64,000 nt of DNA from IMG/VR virus record IMGVR_UViG_3300050145_000014; one strand, 5' to 3'. Below are positions 16,023 to 39,306 of the stretch, one piece after another. The notes below the pieces were generated by a model. The model did no database searches and was not told where the DNA came from. It worked only from the letters and a program-made list of their open reading frames with translations. Every line of letters starts with the position of its first letter. The first letter of the stretch is position 1. This stretch comes from a virus. Its lineage: Duplodnaviria > Heunggongvirae > Uroviricota > Caudoviricetes. The position numbers were made by a program, and so were the translations under genes.

Positions 16023-16025
16023 AGT

Positions 16026-16229: not shown

Positions 16230-16389
16230 GCTGTAAGTTTAGTTCCATTCTTCCTGTGCGTCAAGGCCTTCTGAAGAGAAATTTCTTGACTTTCGGTATT
16301 GTTGTTTTGATACAACATCTTGTACTTCTTTTTCTACCCCGTAGTTTTCCCAATAGTCGTCATCTTCGATTGACCAGTCCTCTGTATTT

Positions 16390-16608
16390 TTATTTTGCTT
16401 CATTCTCAACCTTTTCTGCATATTCCCACCCCCATCCATTATAGACAATACCGACTGGGTGTCTATACTGAATAAAATTCCCTGGGCCTTTCCCCACGAG
16501 TTGGTAAATTGTCCGAGGGGCATTAAGGTATTTGAAATATGTACCTACTTCAAATTCTTGAACTTGGTGAAATGTCCTCATATCTTCAATATCAAATTGG
16601 TTAATCAT
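16390..16608 (-). CDS. hypothetical small protein
   Basis: ORF whose start overlaps the upstream stop. Confidence 0.35.
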   Translation of the reverse strand: MINQFDIEDMRTFHQVQEFEVGTYFKYLNAPRTIYQLVGKGPGNFIQYRHPVGIVYNGWGWEYAEKVENEAK

Positions 16609-16993
16609 ACTTCTGTTTCCTTATCTTTTTCATAGGGATTTTCTTTAGATGCCTTAGCAAAGCTGGGGATGCCTTAGCCTTTACAGAAAGATTATGAGAG
16701 GTCATTTGCATTTCTTTTGTAATTGGATTTTTCCAAAGGTGAGGGATATTCTCTCTCAAAGCGAAAGATACAAGGTTAGGGATGGTAATCCCACGACCCA
16801 TCTCTAACTCATTCCAGATAGTCTCTTGCATAATATCAAGGAAGTCCTGGAACTCATAGACAAAGTACGCATGTTGAGAGAACTCATACATTTTCTGTGC
16901 CAGGGATCGCTTTCCAAGTCTTTTAAGAGTTGTTCGCTTTTGGCCTGGAAACTTTAAACCTGTATTATCTCTCCGTGTGATGATCTCCGACAT
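16601..16993 (-). CDS. hypothetical protein (130 aa)
   Basis: ORF in the track. Confidence 0.4.
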   Translation of the reverse strand: MSEIITRRDNTGLKFPGQKRTTLKRLGKRSLAQKMYEFSQHAYFVYEFQDFLDIMQETIWNELEMGRGITIPNLVSFALRENIPHLWKNPITKEMQMTSHNLSVKAKASPALLRHLKKIPMKKIRKQKYD

Positions 16994-17528
16994 AAAGTGG
17001 GCGGCCTTCCATAAAAGTTACAATCTGGTCTTCTGCAAGAAACCGGTGATCTTGGTAGATGTTATATACGTTGTCTAGACCTACGTCAAGAATTTTACCT
17101 TGACCCTGGAAACTCCCGTGAGAATGTCCATGAAGCATAAAACTCCCGTAGTGCTGACGATTCCAAATTGTCATCGGATAATGACTCATACAAACCTTCG
17201 TGTCACCAATCTTGATTTCCTTATAGTGTCCATAAGACTCGATAAGGCCATCACGGAGAAGTCTTTTAAAATTATCTTCTTTATCGTGATTCCCCATGAT
17301 AAAGTGTTTTCGACCTTTTAGGTTGCGGATAATCCCAGTGAGTACATCATAGGCAGCAGAGAAACAAAAGTCTCCGAGGTGATAAATGTCATCATGTTCG
17401 GATACTTCCGAATTCCATAGATCAGTAACCCAAGCATCATGTTTCTCCGATGTAGTGAAAAGATTTCGATTAGTGAAACTGCAAATGTTCTTGTGCCGAA
17501 AGTGCAAATCCGAGGTGACCTTCTTCAT
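16965..17528 (-). CDS. calcineurin-like metallophosphoesterase (start placed at MKKVTSDL)
   Basis: GNHD (HFIMGNHDKED), GDFCF and HGHSHG metallophosphatase motifs; a 4-nt ATGA overlap with the upstream gene. Confidence 0.7.
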   Translation of the reverse strand: MKKVTSDLHFRHKNICSFTNRNLFTTSEKHDAWVTDLWNSEVSEHDDIYHLGDFCFSAAYDVLTGIIRNLKGRKHFIMGNHDKEDNFKRLLRDGLIESYGHYKEIKIGDTKVCMSHYPMTIWNRQHYGSFMLHGHSHGSFQGQGKILDVGLDNVYNIYQDHRFLAEDQIVTFMEGRPLYVGDHHTER

Positions 17529-18109
17529 TCTAAACTTTCTAAAAAGGCCCGTCGTTCTTGATCTGAGAGGGCTTGCCACTCACTGATAGTACAACGGTTT
17601 TGAATCTTGAAGACTGCATCATGCCACATGGAAGGGAGCTTGTCAAGAGTCTTTTGAGGGTTACTAAACATAACAGATGTGTTGTTATTTGTCATGCGCA
17701 TAAGCTTTTTCTTGCCAACATAGTAGTCAGTCTTGAATTTTGCTGGTGAAAGGTAATCTAGATCTGTACTCATCCAAGCCATAAAGCCCTCACCACGGTC
17801 AGTTTTCTGGAGGTTAATCAATGACTGGATTGTACCGAGCTGGTATTGAATAGGGTGGTATTCACCTGTTGCCTTGCAGCGATAACCAAGATGAATTGCT
17901 CGTGGGGAATCTTCGTCTACAATATGCGGATCATCTTCATGGATAATCTCAAACAAGTCTGTATAATGTGCAGAAAAATCATTCACAATACTGGGGGTGT
18001 GCAACGTCAATGTACTGCGCGGCCATTGATACATATTGAGAGGTTGTAGTTCCTGTCGTACTGATGATACGTCGGCCTTGATGCATTGTTGCAGCAGCCA
18101 TGAAGCCAT
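17525..18109 (-). CDS. Rnl2-like RNA ligase, C-terminal portion (motif IV-like EGFMAW, Lys-rich motif V-like region)
   Basis: Continues the ligase fold begun in 17979..18425 but in another frame; a stop lies just upstream of its Met. Confidence 0.4.
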   Translation of the reverse strand: MASWLLQQCIKADVSSVRQELQPLNMYQWPRSTLTLHTPSIVNDFSAHYTDLFEIIHEDDPHIVDEDSPRAIHLGYRCKATGEYHPIQYQLGTIQSLINLQKTDRGEGFMAWMSTDLDYLSPAKFKTDYYVGKKKLMRMTNNNTSVMFSNPQKTLDKLPSMWHDAVFKIQNRCTISEWQALSDQERRAFLESLE

Positions 18110-18425
18110 TGTATTTCTTCATGTAACGCACAGGGGTATCAAGAGGTAAACCTTGCCAATGACCGTTTTCAAGATAATTGAAAGACTTTCGTGGAGGAGC
18201 TTGGACAAGTTCACCAGTAGCAAGAGAATATACATGACCACGACATTCCAAAGTCTCAGGGTATTTATTCCAGAGGTTATCAAACATCACCTTACGATGA
18301 TACTTATAGGTTACAAGTCCCTGAGCATCATCAACTTTACGGATTGCCAAACCTTGCGAGACTAGGGACTCTTGTTGGTCAAAAGTCAGTAATGTGTTCA
18401 TAGAGTTTCCTTTGTGCCTGTCCAA
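17979..18425 (-). CDS. Rnl2-like RNA ligase, N-terminal portion
   Basis: KSFNYLENGHW...VRYMKKYNGF parallels the T4 Rnl2 N-terminus KKYSSLENHY...EKIHGTNF, including a KxNG-type motif I; the ORF ends 130 nt inside the next ORF. Confidence 0.45.
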   Translation of the reverse strand: MDRHKGNSMNTLLTFDQQESLVSQGLAIRKVDDAQGLVTYKYHRKVMFDNLWNKYPETLECRGHVYSLATGELVQAPPRKSFNYLENGHWQGLPLDTPVRYMKKYNGFMAAATMHQGRRIISTTGTTTSQYVSMAAQYIDVAHPQYCE

Positions 18426-18613
18426 TCATCTGGATCATATAGGATAGAGTCCAGTTTGTCAATAGGAATTTCAACCTTATAGCGTCCTCCTGGATCGTTT
18501 AACACAGCAATCAGGGACTCACCCTTAGACCGTGATGCAATGAATACCTGCATTTCTCCAAACTTGAAAGAGCCTGCATTTTCACGACCTTTAAGGATTG
18601 TAGGTTTTGACAT
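18398..18613 (-). CDS. hypothetical small protein
   Basis: ORF in the track. Confidence 0.3.
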   Translation of the reverse strand: MSKPTILKGRENAGSFKFGEMQVFIASRSKGESLIAVLNDPGGRYKVEIPIDKLDSILYDPDDWTGTKETL

Positions 18614-18651
18614 ATTATTCCTAACTTTAACGGACTTGTTGTTTGGGAAGG

Positions 18652-19041
18652 TTAGACTTTATTCTTAATCAATGCAGCTTCTACAATTGCTTTAATGTAT
18701 TCACCAATGCAGTCAAATCCTTGAGATCCCTCAGGTAAAAGATCAACAGCGTAGGTATCTAGGATACACTCTGCACAATAAAGCTCTTCGTCGGAGTCTT
18801 TTAGATTTTCTTGTTTGCTAGGTTTATCCTGGCTGGCGGAGGCTTGGCATTCCCTGCAGCATTCGTGCCGGTCCATTGTGGCGCGCTCACGATGCAGGGT
18901 GCACACATACTCACCAGCCACACCCGCAGAACTGCCTAGGCATGTGTCAGTGTCGTCATACTCATTGTGCCATCCGGGATTGGTTTCGATTGTTTGCAGC
19001 GCCTCGTGCAGCAGTTGGGTTTCGGTGGTGATGGTGCTCAT
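18652..19041 (-). CDS. Cys-rich hypothetical protein in a locally GC-rich patch
   Basis: CxxC-type pairs (ECCRECQ, YCAECI); local GC well above the neighbouring sequence. Confidence 0.45.
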   Translation of the reverse strand: MSTITTETQLLHEALQTIETNPGWHNEYDDTDTCLGSSAGVAGEYVCTLHRERATMDRHECCRECQASASQDKPSKQENLKDSDEELYCAECILDTYAVDLLPEGSQGFDCIGEYIKAIVEAALIKNKV

Positions 19042-19059
19042 GATGTCTCCTTTGTTAAC

Positions 19060-19428
19060 TCAGAACTGAATCTTATATACAACCTTGTTAGGTGTTAAGA
19101 CCCAATGTGTTGTATAAACACCAATAGCACTACCGATAATGTTGTAAGCCATATCTTCCTTAGAGAAACAAGAGTTAGCGTTAAACATCTCTCGGGACAG
19201 GCCAGGAAGGAGGCTTACTCCAAAAGCAGTCCAAGGGTCAGCAATAACTGCACGAGAGGATGCGCCAATGGCAACAGAGTACATCATATGCACTTGCTTG
19301 TCACCTTCAAACTTGAAAGAATCCTGAGTACAGATCTTATTCATAGCATAAGAAGGTACCAAGAACAAGAAGCAAAGAATACCGATGATGAGCATCCGAA
19401 GACGGTTAGAGATTTCAGAGAATTTCAT
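19060..19428 (-). CDS. secreted small protein, possible OMP-like (C-terminal YKIQF)
   Basis: N-terminal signal/TM segment and a C-terminal aromatic-x-Phe. Confidence 0.4.
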   Translation of the reverse strand: MKFSEISNRLRMLIIGILCFLFLVPSYAMNKICTQDSFKFEGDKQVHMMYSVAIGASSRAVIADPWTAFGVSLLPGLSREMFNANSCFSKEDMAYNIIGSAIGVYTTHWVLTPNKVVYKIQF

Positions 19429-19442
19429 AAGAACCTTTCAAG

Positions 19443-19838
19443 TTAACGAAGCTTGACTGTAAACCGTTGTTGCATCCGTGTCAAGGCTTCTTCAGGAACA
19501 TTGTGCACGTTCTTACCTTCGTGTCGGTTTTCTACAACAAGGCTTACGAACTTTGCACCATGAGACTCGGCAATCTTTTTGTAAGTAGCAACTTCTTTTT
19601 CTGTAGTACTGGTGTTGCTGACAATGATATCAAGTCCAAGTGCAATATGCCATTCTGCAGAACTTTGACACCATTGATGAGCCTCTGGCAATTTTGTCTG
19701 GTCAAACTTGTATTCACCTAAACGATCAAAGTACATGTCAGCTTCATAGTATTCTGTGTCAAGTGCCTCTGCCAAAGTCTTAGCAAAAGTACTCTTACCA
19801 GAGCCAGGGAGTCCGCGAATTAAATATAGGGTTGGCAT
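19443..19838 (-). CDS. polynucleotide-kinase-like P-loop kinase
   Basis: Walker A GLPGSGKST; a downstream IIVSNT and an NVHNVPEEALTRM region parallel the T4 Pnk kinase domain (IGCPGSGKST ... VIISDTNL ... AVPIDVLRSM). Confidence 0.6.
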   Translation of the reverse strand: MPTLYLIRGLPGSGKSTFAKTLAEALDTEYYEADMYFDRLGEYKFDQTKLPEAHQWCQSSAEWHIALGLDIIVSNTSTTEKEVATYKKIAESHGAKFVSLVVENRHEGKNVHNVPEEALTRMQQRFTVKLR

Positions 19839-19991
19839 TAAGGTTATCCTTTAAAATGTCTTATTGAAATACCGCCTTCGTATAGAAGGCTAATGCCTGA
19901 GAGGTCTCGGGAAGTTTCAGAGTATACGCCCTCTTAAATTAAAGCTAAAAGAAGCTCTTGATGTTAGAGAAATCTTATTAGCCAGAATGAC

Positions 19992-20399
19992 TTAAATAAC
20001 CTCTACACCAATCCCGTGCTCTTTTAGTAAAGTCAGCCCTGTAGTATCCCTGTATGTGTTCCTGTAGTAAACCTTTGTGATGCCAGCATCAATTAAGCGC
20101 AAAGCACACAACCTGCATGGTGCATGAGTGATAAAGATATCTGATTTCAGACTAGTCTCTGTACTTCTCGATAACTTATTTAGCGCAGCCGCCTCCGCGT
20201 GAAAAGTCCACCACGCTGTGCTACCATCACCCGCCTCGCACTCGTTTGTAGAGAACCCTCTGGGTGTCCCATTAATCGCGTGGGAAATAATATTCCCATC
20301 CTTTACAATAATTGCTCCAACTTTTAGACGAGTTGCTTCAGAGGTCATCGCAAATCTTTCAGCCATGTCCATAAAAGCTTTTTTATACTTTAATTTCAT
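19992..20399 (-). CDS. dCMP/cytidine deaminase (zinc-dependent)
   Basis: HAEAAAL ... PCRLCA motifs of the CDA fold, at dCMP-deaminase size. Confidence 0.8.
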   Translation of the reverse strand: MKLKYKKAFMDMAERFAMTSEATRLKVGAIIVKDGNIISHAINGTPRGFSTNECEAGDGSTAWWTFHAEAAALNKLSRSTETSLKSDIFITHAPCRLCALRLIDAGITKVYYRNTYRDTTGLTLLKEHGIGVEVI

Positions 20400-20584
20400 T
20401 TCTCTACTTTCTGAACTTCATTTGCAGGACGAACCCATTTATACTTACCAAAACCAGGGACATTCATCCCAATTTTGACATGTGTTTTATTCATATTCAC
20501 AATAACCCCATAGGTTTGTGAATATTTTGTGAAGAAAGATACTGTGTCTTTCAATTCAAGAGTTTTACCTAGCTGGTCTTTCAT
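20396..20584 (-). CDS. hypothetical small protein
   Basis: ORF with 4-nt overlaps on both sides, which favours real translation. Confidence 0.35.
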   Translation of the reverse strand: MKDQLGKTLELKDTVSFFTKYSQTYGVIVNMNKTHVKIGMNVPGFGKYKWVRPANEVQKVEK

Positions 20585-20784
20585 AGTTTTGAAACTTGAC
20601 TTGGGAAGAACCAGAAATACCCGTCAGGGCATTTACAACGAAAACCTAACGTAGAGATTTCTTCTACATTTGTAACAATGAGTTTTGTATGATATGTAGT
20701 CGCCCAGGGGATAACAACTTTGTCATTGACGTAGACAATATCCCCTTTAAAATCTTGGCAAGAGTCCATAGGATTACCCAGCAT
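20581..20784 (-). CDS. hypothetical small protein
   Basis: ORF with a 4-nt overlap with the downstream gene. Confidence 0.35.
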   Translation of the reverse strand: MLGNPMDSCQDFKGDIVYVNDKVVIPWATTYHTKLIVTNVEEISTLGFRCKCPDGYFWFFPSQVSKL

Positions 20785-21118
20785 TTACAATCTCCATCTG
20801 AAGGCCAAACTCATTTGAATAGCGAATAACCTTAACTCCAAAAGCTTTACAGGCTTCATAACAAACAGGGCAGGGTCTAGCGTTAGCATAATTCCCATCT
20901 TTTGTGTATCGAATGACCTCCAAAAGATAAGGAACAGAATCTCCGCACCGAAGTAAAGCTTGCACTTCTGCATGGAGGAAAATCTTCTCCTGGAGATTAA
21001 CCTTTGAAGCAAAATGCGGCATAAGAGGATGAGTTTTGCTGTAGGAGTTTTCACCTACAGCAATTTTACGCATCCGTTTATCATACACAGTAGCGGAGAT
21101 TTTGTATTTGACTTTCAT
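20774..21118 (-). CDS. second CDA-fold deaminase (TadA/dCMP-deaminase-like)
   Basis: HAEVQAL ... PCPVCYEAC zinc-binding motifs. Confidence 0.65.
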   Translation of the reverse strand: MKVKYKISATVYDKRMRKIAVGENSYSKTHPLMPHFASKVNLQEKIFLHAEVQALLRCGDSVPYLLEVIRYTKDGNYANARPCPVCYEACKAFGVKVIRYSNEFGLQMEIVNAG

Positions 21119-21447
21119 TAGTCGTGCAACTTCATTTGTGCCTTCAGTTTACGTTGAATATCCTCTAGACGACTCTTACGATACTTGATCTTGTCACGAA
21201 GACCTTGAACCAGGACAAGATTCTTGTAAGCTTGTTGACCCTCAGGAGTATCCTTACCGGAGATCTCCCACAGGTCAGCTTCGACAACCTTGACATTCGA
21301 TAGGTTCTCTGTAGCATTTGTCAACATCTGGCGGACATAGTTTGAGATGACTTGAACCTCTGCTTGAGTCAAAGCAGGTGCAGAGCGCACAGACTTAAGG
21401 GTCTTGATAGTCTTGAAAGGCTTCAGTAGTGCAGCAATAATACTCAT
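21118..21447 (-). CDS. hypothetical protein (109 aa)
   Basis: ORF in the track. Confidence 0.4.
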   Translation of the reverse strand: MSIIAALLKPFKTIKTLKSVRSAPALTQAEVQVISNYVRQMLTNATENLSNVKVVEADLWEISGKDTPEGQQAYKNLVLVQGLRDKIKYRKSRLEDIQRKLKAQMKLHD

Positions 21448-21457
21448 AGGTTTCTCC

Positions 21458-21664
21458 TTAGACAGGGATGTAGAAAGTGTCTTGGGTCTCGAAAGAGCCG
21501 TTAGGGTTTACACCTACAATAGTGCTGGTGGTAGCCATCTCACCATTGATGACATTAACCTCATCAGGGTGATCAACAGGGGTGATGAAGGCACGCTTGC
21601 CAACGACAATAGTTTCAATGACACTCATGGTGACATCATAATGCACAGTTTGTTTCATATTCAC
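21458..21664 (-). CDS. hypothetical small protein
   Basis: ORF in the track. Confidence 0.3.
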   Translation of the reverse strand: MNMKQTVHYDVTMSVIETIVVGKRAFITPVDHPDEVNVINGEMATTSTIVGVNPNGSFETQDTFYIPV

Positions 21665-21667
21665 CTT

Positions 21668-22057
21668 TCAAGTAAAGTAGATTTCGTTTAAGAGGCCTTC
21701 ATTGTCTAGTAAAAGCCTGAGCTTGTCAAGGCGCTCCTGGGCTTCTTTGAGTTGTTGTTGCATTTCTGCAATAAGGTTTGATTGTTCAAGAACAGCTTTT
21801 GAGAGTTTTGAGTGGTGGGATAGTTGAATAACCAAAAGGCTTTCTTCAGAAACCCAAGTCTTTCTTGCAAGATTTTCTTGTGGTAACTTAGAGGCTTCTT
21901 CAGATGTTCCCACCCAATTACTCGACCAAATACGCCCACCATCAATATCACAAACTTTCCCGTAATTTCTGCCATAACTTTTATCAACTAATTTACGTTT
22001 AACAATATCCCCTACTTTAAATTTTACCTTATCTACAGTATTTACAGTATTTGACAT
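21668..22057 (-). CDS. hypothetical protein with KFKVGDIVKRK N-terminal motif
   Basis: Member of the recurring N-terminal motif family. Confidence 0.45.
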   Translation of the reverse strand: MSNTVNTVDKVKFKVGDIVKRKLVDKSYGRNYGKVCDIDGGRIWSSNWVGTSEEASKLPQENLARKTWVSEESLLVIQLSHHSKLSKAVLEQSNLIAEMQQQLKEAQERLDKLRLLLDNEGLLNEIYFT

Positions 22058-22154
22058 ATTTACCTTTCATATGGTGGAGACAATGAGGAACTACCCTCAA
22101 TACCCATAAGCATTTCTGCCGGATGTTCTTATAGCTACCGAGTCCCCGTAAGCT

Positions 22155-22230
22155 TGGTAGGAGCAATGGGAATCGAACCCATGTTAACTGCCTTATCTAG
22201 ACAGTGCTTAGGAGTTTATAAGGCTCCCCC
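22155..22230 (-). tRNA. tRNA, isotype undetermined (possible anticodon GAU)
   Basis: Reverse complement shows a canonical T-arm ATGGG-TTCGATT-CCCAT, acceptor ...TGCTCCTACCA with CCA encoded, and a D-arm CTTA/TAAG; the anticodon loop TAGATAA is non-canonical (A33) and the acceptor has one mismatch. Confidence 0.45.
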
Positions 22231-22262
22231 TTAGGCCAACATTAGCAATACTCCCGGATAAT

Positions 22263-22337
22263 TGGTAGGGCTGCAGGGCCAACGATCCCTGATCTGATGG
22301 TTAAAAGCCATCTGCTTCACCTTAAAGCTTCAACCCC
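22263..22337 (-). tRNA. tRNA-Lys (anticodon UUU)
   Basis: Acceptor GGGGTTG/CAGCCCT + A + CCA; D-arm GCTT-TAAGGTG-AAGC; anticodon arm GATGG-CTTTTAA-CCATC; the T-loop is unusual (8 nt). Confidence 0.65.
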
Positions 22338-22342
22338 GTATC

Positions 22343-22390
22343 TGGCTCCCACCTGCAGATTTGAACTGAATCTTTACCTTGCCAGTGGGA
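22343..22390 (-). other. 48-nt tRNA-like minihelix (acceptor plus T-arm only, ends GCCA), 5 nt downstream of tRNA-Lys
   Basis: TCCCACT...TTCAG-TTCAAAT-CTGCA-GGTGGGA-G-CCA; no D or anticodon arm fits between the acceptor strands. Confidence 0.4.
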
Positions 22391-22395
22391 ATAGA

Positions 22396-22590
22396 TTATT
22401 TCTGTCTAAAAAGATCTGTATCAACAAAAAGAACCGATTGGTTTTGATTAACCATAACAGATAACCCTTTATCAGAAAGTTCTTTTGCAGTCTGCCATAG
22501 CCAAGAGATATGGAAAGTGTCTAGATGCTTGATCACTGTCTTTTTCTCAATCTCTCTGTTATTACCCCAGAAATAAACTTGAAACTGCAT
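22396..22590 (-). CDS. hypothetical small protein
   Basis: ORF with a 1-nt stop/start overlap with the upstream gene. Confidence 0.35.
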   Translation of the reverse strand: MQFQVYFWGNNREIEKKTVIKHLDTFHISWLWQTAKELSDKGLSVMVNQNQSVLFVDTDLFRQK

Positions 22591-23108
22591 TATTCAACCT
22601 CAACCTTTTCAATCTTCTCTGTTGAAAAGATCAGGCCAATGAATTCGCTGTCGCAAGTGTTTTGCTTTTCAAAATCCTCTTTATCAAGATATCGGCCATA
22701 ACTTTGAAGGAGTCTCCCATACCACATATAAGCTACCTGATACTGTTTGATTTCATTGAACTTAACATGTTCTTTGATGCGGTATTTGTTTTTGATACCC
22801 CAACAAGGAAACTGGGTATTTTTCCATGTGCCATCGTCAAGCTTAACCTGAACAGTCAAAGAAGTATCATCAGCCCATTGCTTGATAATTTCAGCGTGAA
22901 CATGCGGCGCGAGTGCTAGTTCAATTTCATCAAGGGATGCTGCATTCCACCCGTAGTGGTTTGGAAAGTCGATTACGAGAGCAATGCGCGGCGATGTTGG
23001 GAGATTCTTACGGATGATACCAGTATCGTCAGGTTTAATATTTCCCCACCCATTACCGGGCTTTACGCCGTTTTTAACCTTAACTCGATCACCGACTTTG
23101 AATTTCAT
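22590..23108 (-). CDS. hypothetical protein with MKFKVGDRVKVK N-terminal motif
   Basis: Member of the recurring N-terminal motif family. Confidence 0.5.
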   Translation of the reverse strand: MKFKVGDRVKVKNGVKPGNGWGNIKPDDTGIIRKNLPTSPRIALVIDFPNHYGWNAASLDEIELALAPHVHAEIIKQWADDTSLTVQVKLDDGTWKNTQFPCWGIKNKYRIKEHVKFNEIKQYQVAYMWYGRLLQSYGRYLDKEDFEKQNTCDSEFIGLIFSTEKIEKVEVE

Positions 23109-23110
23109 AA

Positions 23111-23314
23111 CTATCTCCTATGTTTGTCTACAATGATGTAGTGAGGAATGAATTGTAGCCACTTCTTGCTATGGTTGTCAATAGCCTTCTGCGCTGCCGA
23201 CTCTGTGTTGTAATTTGACAACTTTACTGGGCGACTTTCTGACATCTTAGGCCAGAGAATTTTAGTAAACATTGTCGACTTCTCAAACCAGTACAGGACT
23301 TGGAAAGGTTTCAT
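23111..23314 (-). CDS. hypothetical small protein
   Basis: ORF in the track. Confidence 0.3.
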   Translation of the reverse strand: MKPFQVLYWFEKSTMFTKILWPKMSESRPVKLSNYNTESAAQKAIDNHSKKWLQFIPHYIIVDKHRR

Positions 23315-23322
23315 AATTAAAC

Positions 23323-23577
23323 CTAGTAGGTAATAGTGACTTTCTCGATTTCAATAAATTTCAAACTCTCATGACTAAGTGACCCTTCTGGACTAATCAC
23401 TTGGATGAGGATTTCATTATTGCCAAGGTAAGTATGAACGCATATCCCAATTAGCCCTTCAAGGCCCCTATTGTGATCGAGCTCAACGAGCCTGTACCAA
23501 GCACCATGTTTAAGTTGAGAGATTCCTAGTAGGGGACTAGGTGGCGTGTTCGCAGTGTTTACAATTACCTGAGTCAT
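23323..23577 (-). CDS. hypothetical small protein
   Basis: ORF in the track. Confidence 0.35.
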   Translation of the reverse strand: MTQVIVNTANTPPSPLLGISQLKHGAWYRLVELDHNRGLEGLIGICVHTYLGNNEILIQVISPEGSLSHESLKFIEIEKVTITY

Positions 23578-23692
23578 AGGACTCCTTTAAAGTCGTAAGA
23601 TGTTATAGAGTACCGGATTGTTTACCAATCCCTGATCAAGGTGCAATCTCTTAATTATCTATTAAGTGTTTTGGTTAAACTAACTCTATGTG

Positions 23693-23778
23693 TGGTGCCC
23701 TCGGCTGGAGTCGAACCTGCAAAAATCATGGATTTTGAATCCACCGACTGTACCAATTTGTCATTTGATCACGAGGGC
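23693..23778 (-). tRNA. tRNA-like gene, 86 nt, possibly Leu (anticodon CAA), non-canonical
   Basis: Perfect 7-bp acceptor GCCCTCG/CGAGGGC + A + CCA; T-arm GCAGG-TTCGACT-CCAGC; anticodon arm GTGGA-TTCAAAA-TCCAT; D-loop contains TTGG; the region between acceptor and D-arm is 6 nt longer than standard. Confidence 0.45.
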
Positions 23779-23806
23779 TAATAACTGAACTATACCTTGA
23801 GAAGTC

Positions 23807-24127
23807 TCACATGTCAAGCAGCAGCTGTCGTGCATAAGCAACAGCTAGATTGTAAGCCCACCAGAAGCGAAGCTTCATTGCAGGGGAGTCGATATCGTTG
23901 AAATCAGTACAATTATAATACCACCTCAAACTGTCACAACCGTGATGAGGGCGCAGAGCCTTTTCAATAGGATAATCAGTTTCCATTCCATAGATTTTAA
24001 AGATCTGAGAAATAAGGGACTCATAAGCCCCATCACGACGGCGCCAGAGCACATGAGAGCAAATACCTGTAGTTCGTGAATTTTGTGTAATATATTGTAG
24101 GAAAGTCTCTGAAGCACGAGGCAACAC
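23807..24127 (-). CDS. hypothetical protein (106 aa); last gene of the minus-strand array
   Basis: ORF in the track. Confidence 0.4.
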   Translation of the reverse strand: MLPRASETFLQYITQNSRTTGICSHVLWRRRDGAYESLISQIFKIYGMETDYPIEKALRPHHGCDSLRWYYNCTDFNDIDSPAMKLRFWWAYNLAVAYARQLLLDM

Positions 24128-24522
24128 TTCAGGAAGATCGAAGAGAGAGACATAAAAGCTCCTGTAAAATTGATGACTGGACTTTAAGGCATCCCTCTCA
24201 AGTTGTCAAGAGGCCGAGTTGTTTTTATGCAACTTTAACAACGATAGCTTTACAGCGACCGAACGACGAGAAGGATGCTTCAACCTGAGTAGCAATAAAT
24301 TTTGCCTGAGACTGTGTTAGGATGCTCCCAATTTCTGCAGTCGTCATTCCATTTGCAGAGGTGATACAATAAACAACACTATACATTTAGTAATCCTTTA
24401 AGAAGTAATTCTACATGAAAGATTCTGTAGAGATTTATATAACTGAAGCAAGATCCTGAAGCTTAGTCCCTTGCCCAGTCCCGACCAGAATTATACAACT
24501 AAAATTCTTTTTGTCAACCCCC

Positions 24523-24552
24523 TTGACACAAGAACTTTTTACATGTTAAAGT
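24523..24552 (+). promoter_or_regulatory. sigma70-like promoter for the plus-strand replication module (-35 TTGACA, 18-bp spacer, -10 TAAAGT)
   Basis: Hexamers read directly, about 30 nt upstream of the first plus-strand gene, within the 400-bp divergent intergenic region. Confidence 0.4.
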
Positions 24553-24580
24553 GCAGTCATCGTAACTTTTGGAGATCTTG

Positions 24581-24775
24581 ATGTTTGGTATGCTGACTAG
24601 CCTAGCCAAGGCTGCTGTAGGTGCCGTGGTGGCCCCTGTGGCTCTTGCAGCTGATGTAGTGACTCTCCCTGCAACTGCTGGTGATCTGCACCGTGGACCA
24701 TTTGATAGTACTCCTAAGGTTCTTTCTAACACTATGAAGAACTTGCAAGACGCTGTTGATCCAAAGAAGGGTTGA
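24581..24775 (+). CDS. hypothetical small protein (ATG start chosen after GGAGA)
   Basis: ORF 24569..24775 in the track; an ATG with an RBS lies at 24581. Confidence 0.4.
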   Translation: MFGMLTSLAKAAVGAVVAPVALAADVVTLPATAGDLHRGPFDSTPKVLSNTMKNLQDAVDPKKG

Positions 24776-24783
24776 CAAGCCCT

Positions 24784-25128
24784 ATGAAAACAAGTACAGT
24801 ACAACGTGGTGAAACCTGGGCTCATAATCAGGCTGTAAGAGCTGTTAAGTATTATGAACAAAAGCGTCAGGAAGCTATTGACAAAGAAGCTGAGAAGATT
24901 TGGGAGGTTTATCAGAATCGAGGATTCTTTTCACGGCTTTTGTTTAATGACCATAAGACTCTTGAAGACTTGAAAAAAGAACTGCAGTTGTGGCACGGCA
25001 GGCTGCATATCAATGACTTAAAGAAGCTGGTAGCCTCTACCGATGGGTCTATGGGTTTTGATCAGAAAATGAACCTTTCTCTTTACCTTTCTAAACTGCT
25101 TGAAAGAGTCCCTGATGACTTTGAATGA
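24784..25128 (+). CDS. hypothetical protein
   Basis: ORF 24772..25128; ATG at 24784 after AAGAAGGG. Confidence 0.45.
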   Translation: MKTSTVQRGETWAHNQAVRAVKYYEQKRQEAIDKEAEKIWEVYQNRGFFSRLLFNDHKTLEDLKKELQLWHGRLHINDLKKLVASTDGSMGFDQKMNLSLYLSKLLERVPDDFE

Positions 25129-25300
25129 ATATATCCAGAACCTCCAAGACTACCTTGCTCGACATCCTGAACATAAAGAAACTGAAGTCTTTATGACGCA
25201 GTCAGGTTATTACTCTGATGGTAACAAGGCTGCCCTTTATGGGGCACCTGAAGTATCCTACAATGGACTTTCTCTGGGACATTCCCACCAATCTTACTAA
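25115..25300 (+). CDS. hypothetical small protein
   Basis: ORF 25100..25300; ATG at 25115. Confidence 0.35.
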   Translation: MTLNEYIQNLQDYLARHPEHKETEVFMTQSGYYSDGNKAALYGAPEVSYNGLSLGHSHQSY

Positions 25301-25308
25301 GGGTCATT

Positions 25309-25455
25309 ATGTCAGACATTGAAAAATATTGGGCTAAGATTTGTGTAGCTTATGGTAGTCCAAAAGCTTGGACAGACTTAAGCCTTAACCAGCAAAACGC
25401 AGTAATCCAGAGTGTAAATATTTTGTTAGCCGTTCTAGACGAAAGGGTTCAGTAA
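25309..25455 (+). CDS. unlisted 48-aa ORF (MSDIEKYWAKICVAYGSPKAW...), TAATG-coupled to the next gene
   Basis: ATG at 25309, stop at 25453-25455, overlapping the next ATG at 25455. Confidence 0.3.
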   Translation: MSDIEKYWAKICVAYGSPKAWTDLSLNQQNAVIQSVNILLAVLDERVQ

Positions 25456-25703
25456 TGTCTCAAATGACGGATGAGATCAACCTCCTGATAAGAAAAAAGA
25501 AAGATGAGGTTAAAACCTTAACCAAGGAAATCTTATGGTTAGAGGGGGCACTGAAAAATACCTGTCAACATGATAATATCGTTGAGCGGTCATCGTACAT
25601 CGCAGGTAACTACAATGATTCATCTCAACATTGGACATGGGAAGAGTGTATTGATTGTGGGACTACTTTCAATACTCAAGTTAAATATGGTAGTCATGGA
25701 TGA
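25455..25703 (+). CDS. small Cys/His-containing protein (possible zinc ribbon)
   Basis: C..H...C..C pattern (CQHDN ... CIDCG). Confidence 0.4.
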   Translation: MSQMTDEINLLIRKKKDEVKTLTKEILWLEGALKNTCQHDNIVERSSYIAGNYNDSSQHWTWEECIDCGTTFNTQVKYGSHG

Positions 25704-25757
25704 CTCATAATTTTAGTAGAAAGATTAAATCTCTTTCTTACTGGTATTGCTATCATT

Positions 25758-26003
25758 GTGGTTTGTTACTCCTTGGAAATAAAGAGTCAAGGAAGCAATC
25801 TATTAAAACTTGTAATGGAAGGTGGGATAAGGATGATTGAGTGCTATTACAAAGAGTGCCCTAACCATGAAATTCATTTTGACAATGAATTAGGGCCATT
25901 CTGTTCTTTAAATAAGTGCATAGCTTCAGAAACTGAATTAAAAGAATATGGAATCTTACGTGAGACTTTCTTGAAAACCTTATTTCCTATCAAACTAATT
26001 TAA
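25758..26003 (+). CDS. small Cys-rich protein (CYYKECPNHEIH ... CSLNKC); start uncertain, alternative frames overlap
   Basis: ORF in the track; a competing 47-aa ORF at 25700..25843 also carries a CxxC motif. Confidence 0.35.
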   Translation: MVCYSLEIKSQGSNLLKLVMEGGIRMIECYYKECPNHEIHFDNELGPFCSLNKCIASETELKEYGILRETFLKTLFPIKLI

Positions 26004-26010
26004 GGATACT

Positions 26011-26964
26011 ATGCAAGACAATTTTAAAAGTATGCAACCATGCGACTGGTATGAAGACAAGGTAAAGTTCCCTTGTATCCTTCAACCAAAGATTGATGGT
26101 GTAGCGAGTTATAATCGATATGGGGCTCTTCTAGGTCGTAGTCTGAAGAAGCATGAGAATCGTTTTGCTACTGCGTTTTTCAGTCAGCAAGAGTATCATG
26201 GTTTTGGGGGTGAAATGACCTCTGGTGATAAACCAACTGGCGATGACCTATGCCGTATTACCTCTGGTGATCTTCGCCGTCGAGATACTGTGCATGATTT
26301 TTACTGGTGGTTGTTTGACTATGTCCCAGATGACTCTTATCTGAACATCTCGTACTTTGATCGGTATCATGCTCTTACGAATGCTATCAAGGAATTACCG
26401 GATCACCTAAAGACTCAACTGAAGATTATCCCTTCGCATATTGTAACAAATATGCAGGAGCTTCTAGACCTTGAAGAGATGTACCTGAACATGGGTTATG
26501 AAGGTGTTATTCTTCGTGATCCAAAAGCGGGGTATAAGTATGGACGTTGTGGTAAGACTTTCATGGGAGCATGGCGCATCAAGCGTTTCATTGATGCCGA
26601 ATTCCTGATCACAGAGATTCTTGAAGGTAATGAAAACCTGAACGAAGCAAAGATCAACGAATTAGGCCGAACTGAGCGTAGCACTCACCAAGAAAATATG
26701 AAGCCTAATGGGCTAGTTGGGACAATTCGCGGCACTCTCCTGGCTGATGTTGTAGACCCACAATCCAAGAAAATTCTTCTTGAAAAGGGCTTGACAATTG
26801 ACGTATCTCCTGGCAACATGCTGCACTCGCAACGTAAGCACTTCTTTGAGAACCCAGAAGAACTCCTGCAAAAGATTGGTAAGTTCAAGTTGTTCCCTAA
26901 GGGAATCAAAGACAAGCCTCGTTTTCCACAATTTATGTCAATTCGAAATGAGAATGATCTATGA
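26011..26964 (+). CDS. ATP-dependent DNA ligase
   Basis: Motif I ILQPKIDGV (KxDG), motif IV-like EGVILRD, C-terminal RFPQFMSIRNEND (motif VI-like); T7-type size. Confidence 0.8.
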   Translation: MQDNFKSMQPCDWYEDKVKFPCILQPKIDGVASYNRYGALLGRSLKKHENRFATAFFSQQEYHGFGGEMTSGDKPTGDDLCRITSGDLRRRDTVHDFYWWLFDYVPDDSYLNISYFDRYHALTNAIKELPDHLKTQLKIIPSHIVTNMQELLDLEEMYLNMGYEGVILRDPKAGYKYGRCGKTFMGAWRIKRFIDAEFLITEILEGNENLNEAKINELGRTERSTHQENMKPNGLVGTIRGTLLADVVDPQSKKILLEKGLTIDVSPGNMLHSQRKHFFENPEELLQKIGKFKLFPKGIKDKPRFPQFMSIRNENDL

Positions 26965-27118
26965 CCCTGCTTCCATTACTTATCATTATCCATTGTTAAT
27001 TGCTATAATCTTAAACATAGGGAGTACACGCGGAACACAACAGACCCGTTTAAAAGAAGGTCTACATATGCAAGGTAATATGCGACCCTTGGATTAAGAA
27101 TACTTAAAGGAAACACCA

Positions 27119-27343
27119 ATGAAATCTAAGAATCAAATGATTATTTTCAGTACTAGCATTGTAGCTATGGGATACTCTTTGCAAGATTTTGCATCCCTAG
27201 CTATTGATCTTGGCTTTTCACAAGAGCAGGCTCTAAAATTTGAGAGCTCTTTTAAAGAGTTTGGCACCCTCCTTGATAATATCACTTCTAAAGAAATCTC
27301 CGAAGCCTTCAAAGAAGCAATTCAAGAAATCATCAAGGACTAA
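27119..27343 (+). CDS. hypothetical protein (74 aa)
   Basis: ORF with an RBS. Confidence 0.4.
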   Translation: MKSKNQMIIFSTSIVAMGYSLQDFASLAIDLGFSQEQALKFESSFKEFGTLLDNITSKEISEAFKEAIQEIIKD

Positions 27344-27345
27344 AT

Positions 27346-28386
27346 ATGACAGAACGTAAACTAGCTACTATTCAAACCATTGACGAAATCTCTCCCATTG
27401 AAGGTGCAGCTTCAATTGAAGCTGCCCGAGTCGGTGGCTGGTGGGTTGTTGTTAAGAAGGGTGAATACAAGGCTGGCGGCCTTTGTGTTTACCTAGAAAT
27501 CGATTCTTTCGTGTCAAATGATCTCGCACCTTTCCTGACGAAGGCAGGCCATGAGCCTAAGGAATTCCGAGGTATCAAGGGTGAACGTCTGAAGACTATC
27601 CGCCTGCGTGGCCAAATCTCTCAAGGGCTTATCCTACCTATTTCTGTGCTTGACTACCTTGTTGAATCTGAGTATCTAGTTGGGCTAGATGTTACAGTCC
27701 CCCTAGGTATCATTAAGTGGGAACAGAAAGAACCTGCACAACTAGCAGGGAATGCTCGTGGTAACTTCCCTGCATTTATTCCAAAGACTGATCAAGAGCG
27801 TGTCCAGAACCTTCCTCGTCATCTAGAGAAGTGCAAGAATGCTGGTGATGAATGGGAAGTCACTGAGAAGCTTGATGGATCTTCTATGACTGTTTACGTT
27901 TCTGTGAGCAGTGAGAATATTTATCATGGTGTTTGCTCTCGTAACCTTGACTTGAAGGAAGATCTAAATAATTCTTTCTGGATGGCCGCCCGCCGCGAGA
28001 GCCTCCATGAAAAGCTAGAATACCAGATGCAATTTATCGGGCAAGTTGCAATTCAAGGTGAGCTAATTGGTCCGGGTATTCAAGGTAATCCCTATCACCT
28101 TGACAAGTTAGAATTCTACCTGTACGATGTATACCTGATTGAAAAGAAGCGTTATATGCTCCCTGAAGAGCGTAGCGTTTTTGCTGCATCTTTAGGTATT
28201 AAAGAATGCCCGTTCATTAGCGTAGCCTCTACACCAACAATTCAAGAAGCTTTGAATTCTGCTGAAGGGGCATCAATGATTAACCCTAAGACTCAACGAG
28301 AAGGGCTAGTCTTTAAGTCCATGACTCGTGACAATGACTCTTTCAAGGCTATTTCAAATGCTTGGTTAATTAAGACAGGAAAGTAA
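27346..28386 (+). CDS. ATP-dependent RNA ligase-like nucleotidyltransferase
   Basis: Motif I TEKLDGSS (KxDG) with a downstream EGLVFK motif IV-like and a Lys-rich C-terminal region; about 346 aa, typical of the phage/DRB0094-type RNA ligases. Confidence 0.6.
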   Translation: MTERKLATIQTIDEISPIEGAASIEAARVGGWWVVVKKGEYKAGGLCVYLEIDSFVSNDLAPFLTKAGHEPKEFRGIKGERLKTIRLRGQISQGLILPISVLDYLVESEYLVGLDVTVPLGIIKWEQKEPAQLAGNARGNFPAFIPKTDQERVQNLPRHLEKCKNAGDEWEVTEKLDGSSMTVYVSVSSENIYHGVCSRNLDLKEDLNNSFWMAARRESLHEKLEYQMQFIGQVAIQGELIGPGIQGNPYHLDKLEFYLYDVYLIEKKRYMLPEERSVFAASLGIKECPFISVASTPTIQEALNSAEGASMINPKTQREGLVFKSMTRDNDSFKAISNAWLIKTGK

Positions 28387-28757
28387 TGCTTAAAACAACT
28401 ACACAGTTAGTCCCTTTTGGAGACGACAGTAAATCGCAAAACATCTGTGGACACTATCTTGCAAATATGGGGTGGGTGGACAGACGTATCCCAGTTAAAT
28501 ATGAGTACATCATCGGGTACTACGAAGTTCCTAGCGAGTTTAACAACTATAAACAAACTGAGAAGTTTCTAATTATCCCTTCCTGGGATAGGTCAAAATC
28601 TAACTTTGACTTACTACAGGAAATCTTTAAGAAAGATAACCTCTGGCACCTTTATGGTACTTTTCGAGATAAAGACAAGTATGTATGTGAGGCTATGCGA
28701 GATCGCGCTATCAAGGATGGTCTATATAGGAGTGAAGATGCAGAACCTAACAGTTAA
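28386..28757 (+). CDS. hypothetical protein (123 aa)
   Basis: ORF, ATGA-coupled to the ligase. Confidence 0.4.
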   Translation: MLKTTTQLVPFGDDSKSQNICGHYLANMGWVDRRIPVKYEYIIGYYEVPSEFNNYKQTEKFLIIPSWDRSKSNFDLLQEIFKKDNLWHLYGTFRDKDKYVCEAMRDRAIKDGLYRSEDAEPNS

Positions 28758-29305: not shown

Positions 29306-29312
29306 GGACTTT

Positions 29313-30983: not shown

Positions 30984-31050
30984 CAACAGGGAGCCCTTGC
31001 GGGCTCCCTTCTTTCATGGTAGGATCAGAAATTATCTTGTGAGGAGGATT

Positions 31051-34841: not shown

Positions 34842-34851
34842 AAGGAAATCA

Positions 34852-36558: not shown

Positions 36559-36567
36559 GGAGAAAAG

Positions 36568-39199: not shown

Positions 39200-39273
39200 C
39201 TCTCCATAACTCAATTGGATAGAGTAACTCCCTTCTAAGGAGTAAGTTAGAGGTTCAAATCCTCTTGGAGAGA
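39200..39273 (+). tRNA. tRNA-Arg (anticodon UCU); 3' CCA not encoded
   Basis: Full cloverleaf read: acceptor CTCTCCA/TGGAGAG, D-arm ACTC-AATTGGATA-GAGT, anticodon arm ACTCC-CTTCTAA-GGAGT, T-arm AGAGG-TTCAAAT-CCTCT, discriminator A. Confidence 0.8.
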
Positions 39274-39306
39274 CTCAGGGCTTTACCTAATTTTAAAAGG
39301 AATTAT

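What the first reader, a model, noticed from the sequence alone, without database searches (positions are those of the whole stretch)
16965..28386. Dispersed RNA healing-and-sealing toolkit (Pnk-like kinase, metallophosphoesterase, two RNA ligases) alongside phage tRNA genes
The window encodes a T4-Pnk-like P-loop kinase (19443-19838), a calcineurin-like metallophosphoesterase (16965-17528; the 3'-end-healing module used by bacterial Pnkp), an Rnl2-like ligase (17525-18425) and a second KxDG RNA ligase (27346-28386). It also carries at least four tRNA or tRNA-like genes. Together these can convert 2',3'-cyclic-phosphate/5'-OH breaks into ligatable ends and reseal them. That is the T4 Pnk/Rnl1 logic used against anticodon nucleases (PrrC, RloC, and by extension PARIS, Retron-Eco7 and VapC-like tRNases). 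Having both an Rnl2-type and a second ligase plus a metallophosphoesterase healer in place of a HAD phosphatase is an unusual combination.
Basis: partly seen in the sequence, partly recalled or inferred. Interest (0 to 1): 0.7.

Follow-up and report, generated by a model that had tools for sequence, protein, structure and literature searches.

The report
Phage RNA-repair cassette with a broken ligase
This phage carries a common three-gene RNA-repair set (a kinase, a phosphoesterase and a T4 Rnl1-type RNA ligase) plus a separate nick-sealing RNA ligase; the combination is ordinary for its phage group, and here the cassette's own ligase gene is interrupted by a one-base frameshift.

Summary
All four genes exist at the stated coordinates, but several labels are wrong. 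The "Rnl2-like" ligase (17525-18401, minus strand) belongs to the T4 Rnl1 clade. It is not one ORF: a one-base frameshift in a C5 run (17993-17997) splits it, identically in three independent assemblies, while 119 of 119 listed relatives are intact. The kinase (19443-19838) is most like T4 Pnk's kinase domain. The phosphoesterase (16965-17528) belongs to the uncharacterised aq_1665 family, not the Pnkp/lambda-phosphatase clade. The second ligase (27346-28386) is a clear Rnl5 nick-sealing ligase beside a DNA ligase and the primase-helicase.

The kinase, Rnl1-like ligase and phosphoesterase are not dispersed. They form a same-strand cassette found in over 600 GenBank phage records. In 78 IMG/VR loci, 65 have the kinase and 55 the phosphoesterase within 6 kb; 11 encode a kinase-ligase fusion. 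Many of these phages also carry Rnl5, and tRNA repair was already proposed for Pakpunavirus (PMC12846349). So the combination is not unusual.

An RNA heal-and-seal role is well supported by comparison but untested biochemically. In this phage the dedicated sealing step is probably lost. New member of a known kind; interest is low to moderate.

The parts
19443..19838 (-). Stand-alone P-loop kinase (131 aa) of the polynucleotide-kinase clade, with no phosphatase domain. Inferred function: 5'-OH polynucleotide kinase.
17979..18401 (-). N-terminal part of the Rnl1-like RNA ligase (140 codons). It carries the Rnl1-specific residues R54, K72 and F74 and the motif I lysine (K96 in KYNG). It ends at an in-frame TGA at 17979-17981, just after the frameshift.
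   Evidence: phrog_562 (T4 gp63/Rnl1) E 4.6e-21. Sequence read directly. Colinear with the single 291-aa ORF of Limnohabitans phage DC31. Its ATG overlaps the stop codon of the upstream ORF.
17993..17997 (-). C5 homopolymer run where the ligase reading frame breaks. Deleting one C restores a 291-aa ligase. Read-through would need a +1 ribosomal shift at CCC-C.
   Evidence: sequence; alignment of the repaired protein. The same CACCCCCAG is present in three independent assemblies, L004, L005 and L006. All 119 listed relatives are single ORFs of 280-308 aa.
17525..18000 (-). C-terminal part of the Rnl1-like RNA ligase in the +1 frame. It carries motifs III (E151), IV (E204-G205) and V (K221, K223).
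   Evidence: phrog_562 E 4.7e-17. The repaired protein hits TIGR02308 (T4 RnlA family) at E 2e-7, below the curated cut-off. The family profile hits T4 Rnl1 2c5u at E 5e-15 over residues 33-279, with no Rnl2 hit.
16965..17528 (-). Small single-domain binuclear metallophosphoesterase (187 aa) of the aq_1665 family. Inferred function: 2',3'-cyclic-phosphate / 3'-phosphate end-healing enzyme. This rests on gene context only.
27346..28386 (+). Rnl5-family (DraRnl/NgrRnl) ATP-dependent nick-sealing RNA ligase, intact, with the N-terminal OB domain and a KLDG motif I.
   Evidence: PF09414 E 3e-29 plus PF21189 E 8e-27. NgrRnl 5cot E 3e-77 over the full length. TIGR02306 scores 200 bits against a cut-off of 151. 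The DNA ligase-Rnl5 pair is conserved in relatives; Rnl5 lies directly next to the cassette in L042 and L089.
26011..26964 (+). ATP-dependent DNA ligase (context only): conserved upstream partner of the Rnl5 gene.
   Evidence: PF01068 E 7e-8. phrog_114 E 3e-44. Paired with Rnl5 in DC31 and in six or more IMG/VR loci.
22263..22337 (-). tRNA-Lys(UUU), canonical.
   Evidence: ARAGORN. Rfam 46 bits.
22158..22255 (-). tRNA-like gene (98 nt) with a 32-nt insertion in the D-loop region and a non-canonical anticodon loop.
   Evidence: Rfam RF00005 38 bits, above the gathering score of 29. Not called by ARAGORN. The predicted fold has five arms.
39200..39274 (+). tRNA-Arg(UCU), canonical.
   Evidence: ARAGORN. 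Rfam 68 bits.

Best explanation
The minus-strand array from 19838 to 16965 is this phage's copy of a widespread phage RNA end-healing and sealing cassette.

Inferred mechanism:
- The stand-alone PNK-clade kinase phosphorylates 5'-OH RNA ends. The P-loop and the D34 general base are shown by alignment; the activity is inferred.
- The aq_1665-type metallophosphoesterase opens and removes 2',3'-cyclic or 3'-phosphates. This is inferred only from conserved gene linkage.
- The short Rnl1-clade ligase joins the resulting 3'-OH and 5'-PO4 ends through a lysyl-AMP intermediate on K96. The motifs are shown; the activity is inferred.
- The likely purpose is to reverse host or rival ribonuclease damage to tRNA or other RNA, as T4 Pnkp and Rnl1 do against PrrC.

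In this phage the ligase gene carries a fixed one-base insertion that separates motif I from motifs III-V. The dedicated sealing step is therefore most likely lost, or reduced to rare +1 read-through. The kinase and phosphoesterase remain intact.

The second RNA ligase is an Rnl5 nick-sealing enzyme. It belongs to a conserved DNA ligase-Rnl5 pair next to the primase-helicase. It is only loosely tied to the cassette, and nothing shows that it takes over the sealing step.
For: Family assignments.

Cassette conservation in annotated phages:
- The kinase (648 records) and the ligase (611-644 records) have near-identical genus counts in GenBank phages.
- The genes are adjacent in DC31, Pyxpy02, rV5, RSP15 and metagenomic L010, with differing gene orders.

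Cassette conservation in 78 IMG/VR ligase loci:
- 65 have the kinase, 55 the phosphoesterase, 44 both and 2 neither, always on the ligase strand.
- The median kinase-ligase gap is about 0.

Fusion: 11 loci encode kinase and ligase in one ORF, with Pfam AAA_33 plus RNA_lig_T4_1 in one 432-aa protein.

Frameshift: read directly, identical in three assemblies, and the repaired protein is colinear with relatives. 119 of 119 listed relatives are intact.

Literature: the same interpretation has been published for Pakpunavirus (PMC12846349). The general scheme of PNK plus phosphoesterase plus ATP-grasp RNA ligase in phages is described in PMC7824862.
Against: - No member of this kinase, phosphoesterase or short Rnl1 family has been tested biochemically, as far as the library shows.
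- The phosphoesterase's nearest structure has no known function. Its relatives in cellular genomes stand alone, with no kinase or ligase nearby in 77 of 80 loci. The family is therefore not dedicated to RNA repair.
- The ligase lacks T4 Rnl1's C-terminal tRNA-specificity domain, so tRNA as the substrate is a guess.
- The ligase gene is broken here.
- 23 of 78 related loci lack the phosphoesterase. In one of them, L016, a Macro-domain gene sits where the phosphoesterase usually is.
Confidence: 0.6

Rival explanations
1. The cassette is a decaying remnant with no function in this phage. The ligase has been pseudogenised, and the kinase and phosphoesterase are on their way out.
For: The frameshift is fixed in every assembly checked. 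It separates the adenylylation lysine from motifs III-V. No stimulatory signal, such as a Shine-Dalgarno-like element or a rare or stop codon, accompanies the slip site. The only other split ligase found, in L047, breaks at a different position, which argues against conserved recoding.
Against: The kinase and phosphoesterase keep every family-invariant residue and their full length. Each ligase half is free of further stops or indels and stays colinear with relatives, so any inactivation is recent. 11 related loci carry ligase plus phosphoesterase without the kinase, and 10 carry kinase plus ligase without the phosphoesterase, so partial sets persist in nature.
Confidence: 0.2
2. The kinase and phosphoesterase process DNA ends (5'-OH and 3'-phosphate) for phage replication or repair, feeding the DNA ligase and Rnl5 rather than repairing RNA.
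For: T4 Pnkp and mammalian PNKP also act on DNA (established knowledge). The surrounding genes are dCMP deaminases, an HU-like protein, a DNA ligase and a primase-helicase. Rnl5 is paired with the DNA ligase. Loss of DraRnl sensitises Deinococcus to ionising radiation (PMC5397189).
Against: The conserved, and sometimes fused, partner of the kinase is an Rnl1-clade ligase. The only characterised structural relative of that ligase is the RNA-specific T4 Rnl1. The DNA ligase is not part of the conserved trio.
Confidence: 0.1
3. The kinase and/or phosphoesterase act on small molecules, such as NAD-salvage intermediates or nucleotide second messengers, and their link to the ligase is incidental.
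For: In Otagovirus- and Pakpunavirus-type phages the cassette lies next to PRPP synthetase and NAMPT. The kinase profile weakly hits nicotinamide riboside kinase (E 0.007). The phosphoesterase fold is generic, and its relatives in cellular genomes stand alone.
Confidence: 0.08

Closest known systems
The same kinase / 'RNA ligase 1 and tail attachment protein' / phosphoesterase cassette in Pakpunavirus (PaP1, PaoP5, JG004, Adele), Otagovirus (phiPsa374, VCM, Pyxpy02), Vequintavirinae (rV5, phi92-like), Vibrio siphoviruses (Pontus, Thalassa), Ralstonia RSP15 and Limnohabitans phage DC31
   Same: These are homologous proteins: 30-54% identity for the ligase, 47-54% for the kinase and 42-45% for the phosphoesterase. 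They show the same same-strand clustering. Many of these phages also carry an Rnl5 ligase. The tRNA-repair reading has already been published for phage Adele (PMC12846349).
   Different: No DNA-level similarity to any GenBank phage. The ligase is frameshifted here and intact there. Three small unrelated ORFs are inserted between kinase and ligase. No HD-domain phosphohydrolase or T4-type Pnkp accompanies the cassette, unlike in Pyxpy02, RSP15 and PaP1-like phages.
T4 Pnkp + Rnl1 (gp63) tRNA repair pathway against the PrrC anticodon nuclease
   Same: The kinase resembles T4 Pnk's kinase domain, with the P-loop and catalytic Asp aligned. The ligase shares the Rnl1-specific N-terminal residues and motifs I, III, IV and V. 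The overall logic is the same: heal both ends, then seal.
   Different: The kinase has no HAD 3'-phosphatase domain; a separate metallophosphoesterase is linked instead. The ligase is 291 aa rather than 374 aa, lacks the C-terminal tRNA-specificity domain, and has KxNG rather than KxDG in motif I. It scores far below the TIGR02308 cut-off (30 bits against 242).
Bacterial Pnkp/Hen1 and Pnkp1-Rnl-Hen1 RNA repair systems (Clostridium thermocellum, Capnocytophaga gingivalis)
   Same: The same three chemistries are present: P-loop 5'-kinase, binuclear metallophosphoesterase 3'-healer and ATP-dependent ligase. In Pnkp1-Rnl-Hen1 the ligase is a separate polypeptide, as it is here (PMC4411300, PMC3675462).
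Rnl5 nick-sealing RNA ligases (Deinococcus DraRnl, Naegleria NgrRnl)
   Same: The gene at 27346-28386 is a full-length member: N-terminal OB domain plus nucleotidyltransferase domain, above the curated cut-off.
   Different: Nothing notable in the sequence. The context differs: it is phage-borne and paired with a DNA ligase and a primase-helicase. The physiological role of the family is still described as uncharted (PMC5397189).

Membership tests
Rnl1 clade (T4 RnlA / gp63) | Covalent nucleotidyltransferase motifs I (Lys), III, IV and V | tested here: met
   K96-x-N-G, E151, E204-G205 and K221-x-K223 are invariant in the 31-sequence family alignment. They align with T4 K99, E159, E227-G228 and K240/K242.
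Rnl1 clade (T4 RnlA / gp63) | Rnl1-specific essential residues upstream of motif I (T4 R54, K75, F77) | tested here: met
   LECRG and K-x-F-N align with the T4 residues. R54 and K72 are invariant and F74 nearly so. The list of essential T4 residues comes from my own knowledge of the Shuman-lab mutational work.
Rnl1 clade (T4 RnlA / gp63) | Passes the curated family models (TIGR02308, PF09511) | tested here: not met
   The repaired window protein scores 30.4 bits on TIGR02308 against a cut-off of 242, and 15.1 bits on PF09511 against 28.3. Relatives from DC31, L010 and L067 do pass PF09511, at 38-51 bits. It is a distant subfamily, not an equivalog.
Rnl1 clade (T4 RnlA / gp63) | C-terminal tRNA-specificity domain (T4 residues ~255-374) | tested here: not met
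   The profile alignment ends at T4 residue 279. The phage protein is 291 aa against 374 aa for T4.
Rnl1 clade (T4 RnlA / gp63) | Intact open reading frame | tested here: not met
   Split by a +1 frameshift at 17993-17997, reproducible in three assemblies.
Rnl2 (T4 RnlB) | Sequence membership (TIGR02307 / Rnl2 structures) for the 17525-18401 ligase | tested here: not met
   No Rnl2 hit from either the single sequence or the family profile; the only significant PDB hits are T4 Rnl1 entries.
Rnl5 (DraRnl/NgrRnl) | N-terminal OB domain plus nucleotidyltransferase domain, above the curated cut-off, with a KxDG lysine | tested here: met
   PF21189 plus PF09414. TIGR02306 scores 200.2 bits against a cut-off of 151.15. 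NgrRnl E 3e-77 over residues 3-343. KLDGSS is conserved.
T4-type Pnkp | Kinase domain with a P-loop and a catalytic Asp (T4 D35) | tested here: met
T4-type Pnkp | Fused HAD (DxDxT) 3'-phosphatase domain | tested here: not met
   The protein is 131 aa and kinase-only. A crude motif scan found no DxDxT-motif ORF of 90 aa or more in the window.
Bacterial Pnkp / Pnkp1-Rnl-Hen1 | Lambda-phosphatase-like metallophosphoesterase healer and a Hen1 partner | tested here: not met
Calcineurin-like binuclear metallophosphoesterases (aq_1665 subfamily) | Five metal-binding motifs: DxH, GD, GNH(D/E), H and GHxH | tested here: met
RNA heal-and-seal pathway (functional class) | [quoted passage not shown] | not testable with these tools
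   This needs biochemistry. Only gene linkage and homology are available.

The most novel reading that the evidence does not exclude
The interrupted Rnl1-like ligase is not dead. It is made by +1 ribosomal frameshifting on the CCC-C site at 17993-17997, or works as a two-piece enzyme. Sealing activity would then be produced at a low, tunable level, and this copy would be a recoded RNA-repair ligase. Separately, the linked aq_1665-type phosphoesterase would be the first member of its family with an assigned function, as a new clade of RNA 3'-end healing enzyme.
Probability: 0.07. Interest if true: 0.55.

Novelty: new member of a known kind. Interest (0 to 1): 0.3.

Why it matters
Phage RNA-repair genes are candidate counter-measures against tRNA- and RNA-cleaving bacterial defences such as PrrC, RloC, PARIS, retron-Eco7 and Cas13. 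Only the T4 Pnkp/Rnl1 pair has been characterised.

The cassette seen here is far more widespread than the T4 version, with more than 600 GenBank phage records across several families. It uses different parts: a kinase without a phosphatase domain, an aq_1665-type metallophosphoesterase and a short Rnl1. No member appears to have been tested biochemically or genetically.

The window itself adds little beyond one more, damaged, example. The comparative picture assembled here is more useful:
- conserved same-strand synteny;
- natural kinase-ligase fusions;
- a Macro domain sitting where the phosphoesterase usually is, in one relative (L016);
- stand-alone phosphoesterase relatives in cellular genomes.

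Together these give a concrete, testable hypothesis for a large uncharacterised gene set in therapeutic phage genera such as Pakpunavirus and Vequintavirus.

Tried and rejected
- **DNA-level search:** megablast of 16000-29500 against GenBank phages found no match.
- **Pfam on the two ligase half-ORFs:** nothing found.
- **Sequencing-error explanation for the frameshift:** rejected, because three assemblies from different samples carry the identical C5 run.
- **Conserved programmed frameshift:** judged unlikely. All 119 listed relatives are intact, the one other split copy breaks at a different site, and no stimulatory signal is evident.
- **Kinase-phosphoesterase-ligase fusion in Ralstonia phage RSP15:** the ligase there is annotated 'metallophosphoesterase', but this is a mis-annotation of a separate ligase gene.
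- **HD-domain partner as in Pyxpy02 and RSP15:** none found near the cassette in the window.
- **HAD or 2H end-healing enzymes elsewhere in the window:** none found by a crude motif scan or by Pfam on the larger ORFs.
- **Phosphoesterase linked to kinase or ligase in cellular genomes:** not the case, in 77 of 80 loci.
- **tRNA genes conserved next to the cassette:** not the case, in 0 of 24 relatives.
- **Burroughs & Aravind 2016 (NAR 44:8525):** not held in the library. Its content is cited only through PMC7824862.
- **LMW-phosphatase-like ORF at 28838-29305:** no hit in Pfam, PHROGs, NCBIfam or the PDB.

Full report
**Source and setting**

The window has no DNA-level match among 50,697 GenBank phage records. 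It encodes a long tape-measure protein, primase-helicase, an intron-split DNA polymerase, ribonucleotide reductase and NAD-salvage genes. It is therefore a large virulent tailed phage. Its nearest annotated relative is Limnohabitans phage DC31, at 45-51% protein identity. The exact kinase protein occurs on 18 metagenomic contigs, the longest 84 kb.

**Checking the observation**

All four genes exist. The kinase ORF (19443-19838, minus strand) matches AAA_33 at E 2e-15. The phosphoesterase (16965-17528, minus strand) matches Metallophos weakly and phrog_547 strongly, at E 9e-48. The second ligase (27346-28386, plus strand) is unambiguous. It has PF09414 plus the PHA02142 OB domain, hits Naegleria NgrRnl at E 3e-77 over its whole length, and scores 200 bits on TIGR02306 against a cut-off of 151.

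The stretch called an 'Rnl2-like ligase' (17525-18425) is not one ORF. It is two overlapping ORFs in different frames. Both halves match phrog_562, the T4 gp63/Rnl1 family, at consecutive profile positions: 25-139 and 154-289. Reading the sequence shows a run of five C at 17993-17997. Removing one C fuses the halves into a 291-aa protein (start ATG at 18401). That protein is colinear with, and 48% identical to, the single-ORF ligase of DC31.

For tRNAs, ARAGORN finds two: Lys-UUU and Arg-UCU. Rfam adds a 98-nt tRNA hit with a 32-nt D-loop insertion. A weak fourth tRNA-like element lies at 23697-23778.

**Is the frameshift real?**

Three assemblies from different samples (Logan SRR35811446, JGI 3300050554 and JGI 3300050159) are 100% identical to the window across the region. 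All three include CACCCCCAG. A random assembly error is therefore excluded.

Among the 120 best database relatives of the repaired protein, the only short entry is the window's own C-terminal half. The other 119, at 45-55% identity, are single ORFs of 280-308 aa.

The break separates the adenylylation lysine (K96) from motifs III, IV and V. Read-through would need a +1 slip on CCC-C. No Shine-Dalgarno-like element or hungry codon accompanies the site. The only other split copy among 78 related loci breaks elsewhere. I conclude that this is a recent inactivating insertion. Low-level +1 read-through is not excluded.

**What the proteins are**

*Ligase 1.* A profile of 31 family members hits only T4 Rnl1 in the PDB, at E 5e-15 over T4 residues 33-279. 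The Rnl1-specific R54, K75 and F77 equivalents and motifs I, III, IV and V are invariant. There is no Rnl2 signal. The family is a short, divergent Rnl1 subgroup. It lacks T4's C-terminal tRNA-binding domain, has KxNG in motif I, and scores well below the TIGR02308 equivalog cut-off.

**Context is the strongest evidence**

In GenBank phages the kinase and the ligase have almost the same distribution: Escherichia 198/199, Pseudomonas 173/175, Vibrio 89/83, Klebsiella 36/36, Acinetobacter 24/24 and Campylobacter 23/23.

The three genes are neighbours in lineages as different as the following, and the gene order varies between them:
- DC31
- Otagovirus-like Pyxpy02
- rV5
- Ralstonia phage RSP15
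- a metagenomic relative, L010

I then scanned 78 IMG/VR loci holding a ligase relative, with 6-kb flanks, using profiles of the kinase and the phosphoesterase.

| Measure | Loci (of 78) |
|---|---|
| Kinase present | 65 |
| Phosphoesterase present | 55 |
| Both present | 44 |
| Neither present | 2 |

| Arrangement | Loci (of 78) |
|---|---|
| kinase > ligase > phosphoesterase (as in the window) | 26 |
| phosphoesterase > ligase > kinase | 18 |
| kinase and ligase fused in one ORF, no phosphoesterase | 11 |
| phosphoesterase > ligase, no kinase | 11 |
| kinase > ligase, no phosphoesterase | 10 |
| neither | 2 |

Every hit is on the ligase strand, and the median kinase-ligase gap is about 0. 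One fusion protein, of 432 aa, was confirmed by Pfam as AAA_33 plus RNA_lig_T4_1.

Fusion and tight, order-independent linkage argue strongly that kinase and ligase act in one pathway on polynucleotide ends. The link to the phosphoesterase is good but weaker. 23 loci lack it. In one of these, L016, a Macro-domain gene sits in its place. Relatives of the phosphoesterase in cellular genomes stand alone in 77 of 80 loci.

**The second ligase**

Characterised Rnl5 enzymes seal 3'-OH/5'-PO4 nicks in duplexes whose 3'-OH strand is RNA. Their physiological role is described as uncharted, and loss of DraRnl causes radiation sensitivity (PMC4408790, PMC5397189, PMC7261155).

In the window and in DC31, Rnl5 lies between an ATP-dependent DNA ligase and the primase-helicase. 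The DNA ligase-Rnl5 pair recurs in at least six related loci. Rnl5 is within 6 kb of the cassette in 8 of 78 loci and directly adjacent in two. It is thus loosely associated with the cassette. Nothing shows that it can seal the single-stranded breaks typical of anticodon nucleases.

**Is the combination unusual?**

No. Pakpunavirus phages (PaP1, PaoP5, JG004) carry the Rnl5-type ligase, the 'RNA ligase/tail attachment protein', the adjacent 136-aa kinase and the phosphoesterase. Pyxpy02 and Psxphi15 carry both ligases.

[quoted passage not shown] It notes that the kinase lacks the 3'-phosphatase domain (PMC12846349). A comparative survey of jumbo phages likewise describes polynucleotide kinases and phosphoesterases working with ATP-grasp RNA ligases. 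Those phosphoesterases are mostly HAD, with calcineurin-like and HD types in a few phages (PMC7824862).

The association with tRNA genes is not conserved. None lies within 6-9 kb of the cassette in 24 relatives.

**Verdict**

The genes are real, and the heal-and-seal reading is the best-supported explanation (confidence about 0.6). The finding is another, partly broken, copy of a widespread and already-interpreted phage cassette.

- the ligase family was misassigned (Rnl1, not Rnl2);
- the frameshift was missed;
- the phosphoesterase subtype was misassigned;
- the genes were called 'dispersed';
- the combination was called unusual.

What remains open is experimental. No member of this kinase, phosphoesterase or short-Rnl1 family seems to have been assayed.

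Noticed in passing
window 32594-32885 (+), with 30997-32685, 32907-33452 and 33424-33972: A group I intron (Rfam RF00028, 64.8 bits) splits the DNA polymerase gene into two ORFs. An HNH endonuclease ORF follows the second exon.
   Followed up: partly
window 42874-43986 (+): The flavin-dependent thymidylate synthase (ThyX) gene carries an intein: Intein_splicing E 1e-14 inside a Thy1 match.
   Followed up: no
window 22158-22255 (-): A tRNA-like gene next to tRNA-Lys has a 32-nt insertion in the D-loop region that forms an extra hairpin. Its anticodon loop is non-canonical (A at position 33; GAU if read as an anticodon). It scores above the Rfam tRNA gathering score but ARAGORN does not call it. 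It was not found in any related locus fetched.
   Followed up: partly
window 23697-23778 (-): A weak class-II-like tRNA-shaped element: 7-bp acceptor stem, possible CAA anticodon and one T-stem mismatch. It is sub-threshold in Rfam (tRNA-Sec model, 21 bits) and ARAGORN does not call it.
   Followed up: partly
window 28838-29305 (+): A 155-aa ORF two genes downstream of Rnl5 has a CSAGILRS (C-x5-R-S) signature, like low-molecular-weight phosphatases and arsenate reductases. It has no hit in Pfam, PHROGs, NCBIfam or PDB sequences.
   Followed up: partly
window 34035-37398 (+): An NAD-related block: PRPP synthetase-like (34035-34841), nicotinamide phosphoribosyltransferase (34852-36558) and a DUF7275/DUF7277 protein (36568-37398). 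The same NAMPT and PRPP-synthetase genes lie beside the RNA-repair cassette in Pyxpy02.
   Followed up: no
L067 5536-6834 and ten similar IMG/VR loci (L060, L061, L063, L064, L066, L073-L076, L089): A natural single-polypeptide fusion of the kinase and the Rnl1-like ligase (432 aa; AAA_33 plus RNA_lig_T4_1). These loci have no phosphoesterase within 6 kb.
   Followed up: partly
L016 6874-7341: In one relative that has kinase and ligase but no metallophosphoesterase, a Macro-domain protein sits immediately after the ligase, where the phosphoesterase usually lies.
   Followed up: no
window 19992-20399 (-) and 20774-21118 (-): Two separate dCMP/cytidine deaminase-like genes lie just upstream of the kinase. 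The same pair is seen in relatives L011 and L013.
   Followed up: no
window 16601-16993 (-): An HU/IHF-like DNA-binding protein gene (PF00216, E 1.6e-6) overlaps the end of the phosphoesterase gene. A homologous gene lies downstream of the cassette in L010.
   Followed up: no
L002 972-1415 and L015 1463-1909: In Pyxpy02 and RSP15 an HD-domain 'metal-dependent phosphohydrolase' gene lies within the same cluster as the kinase, ligase and phosphoesterase. No counterpart was found near the cassette in the window.
   Followed up: partly
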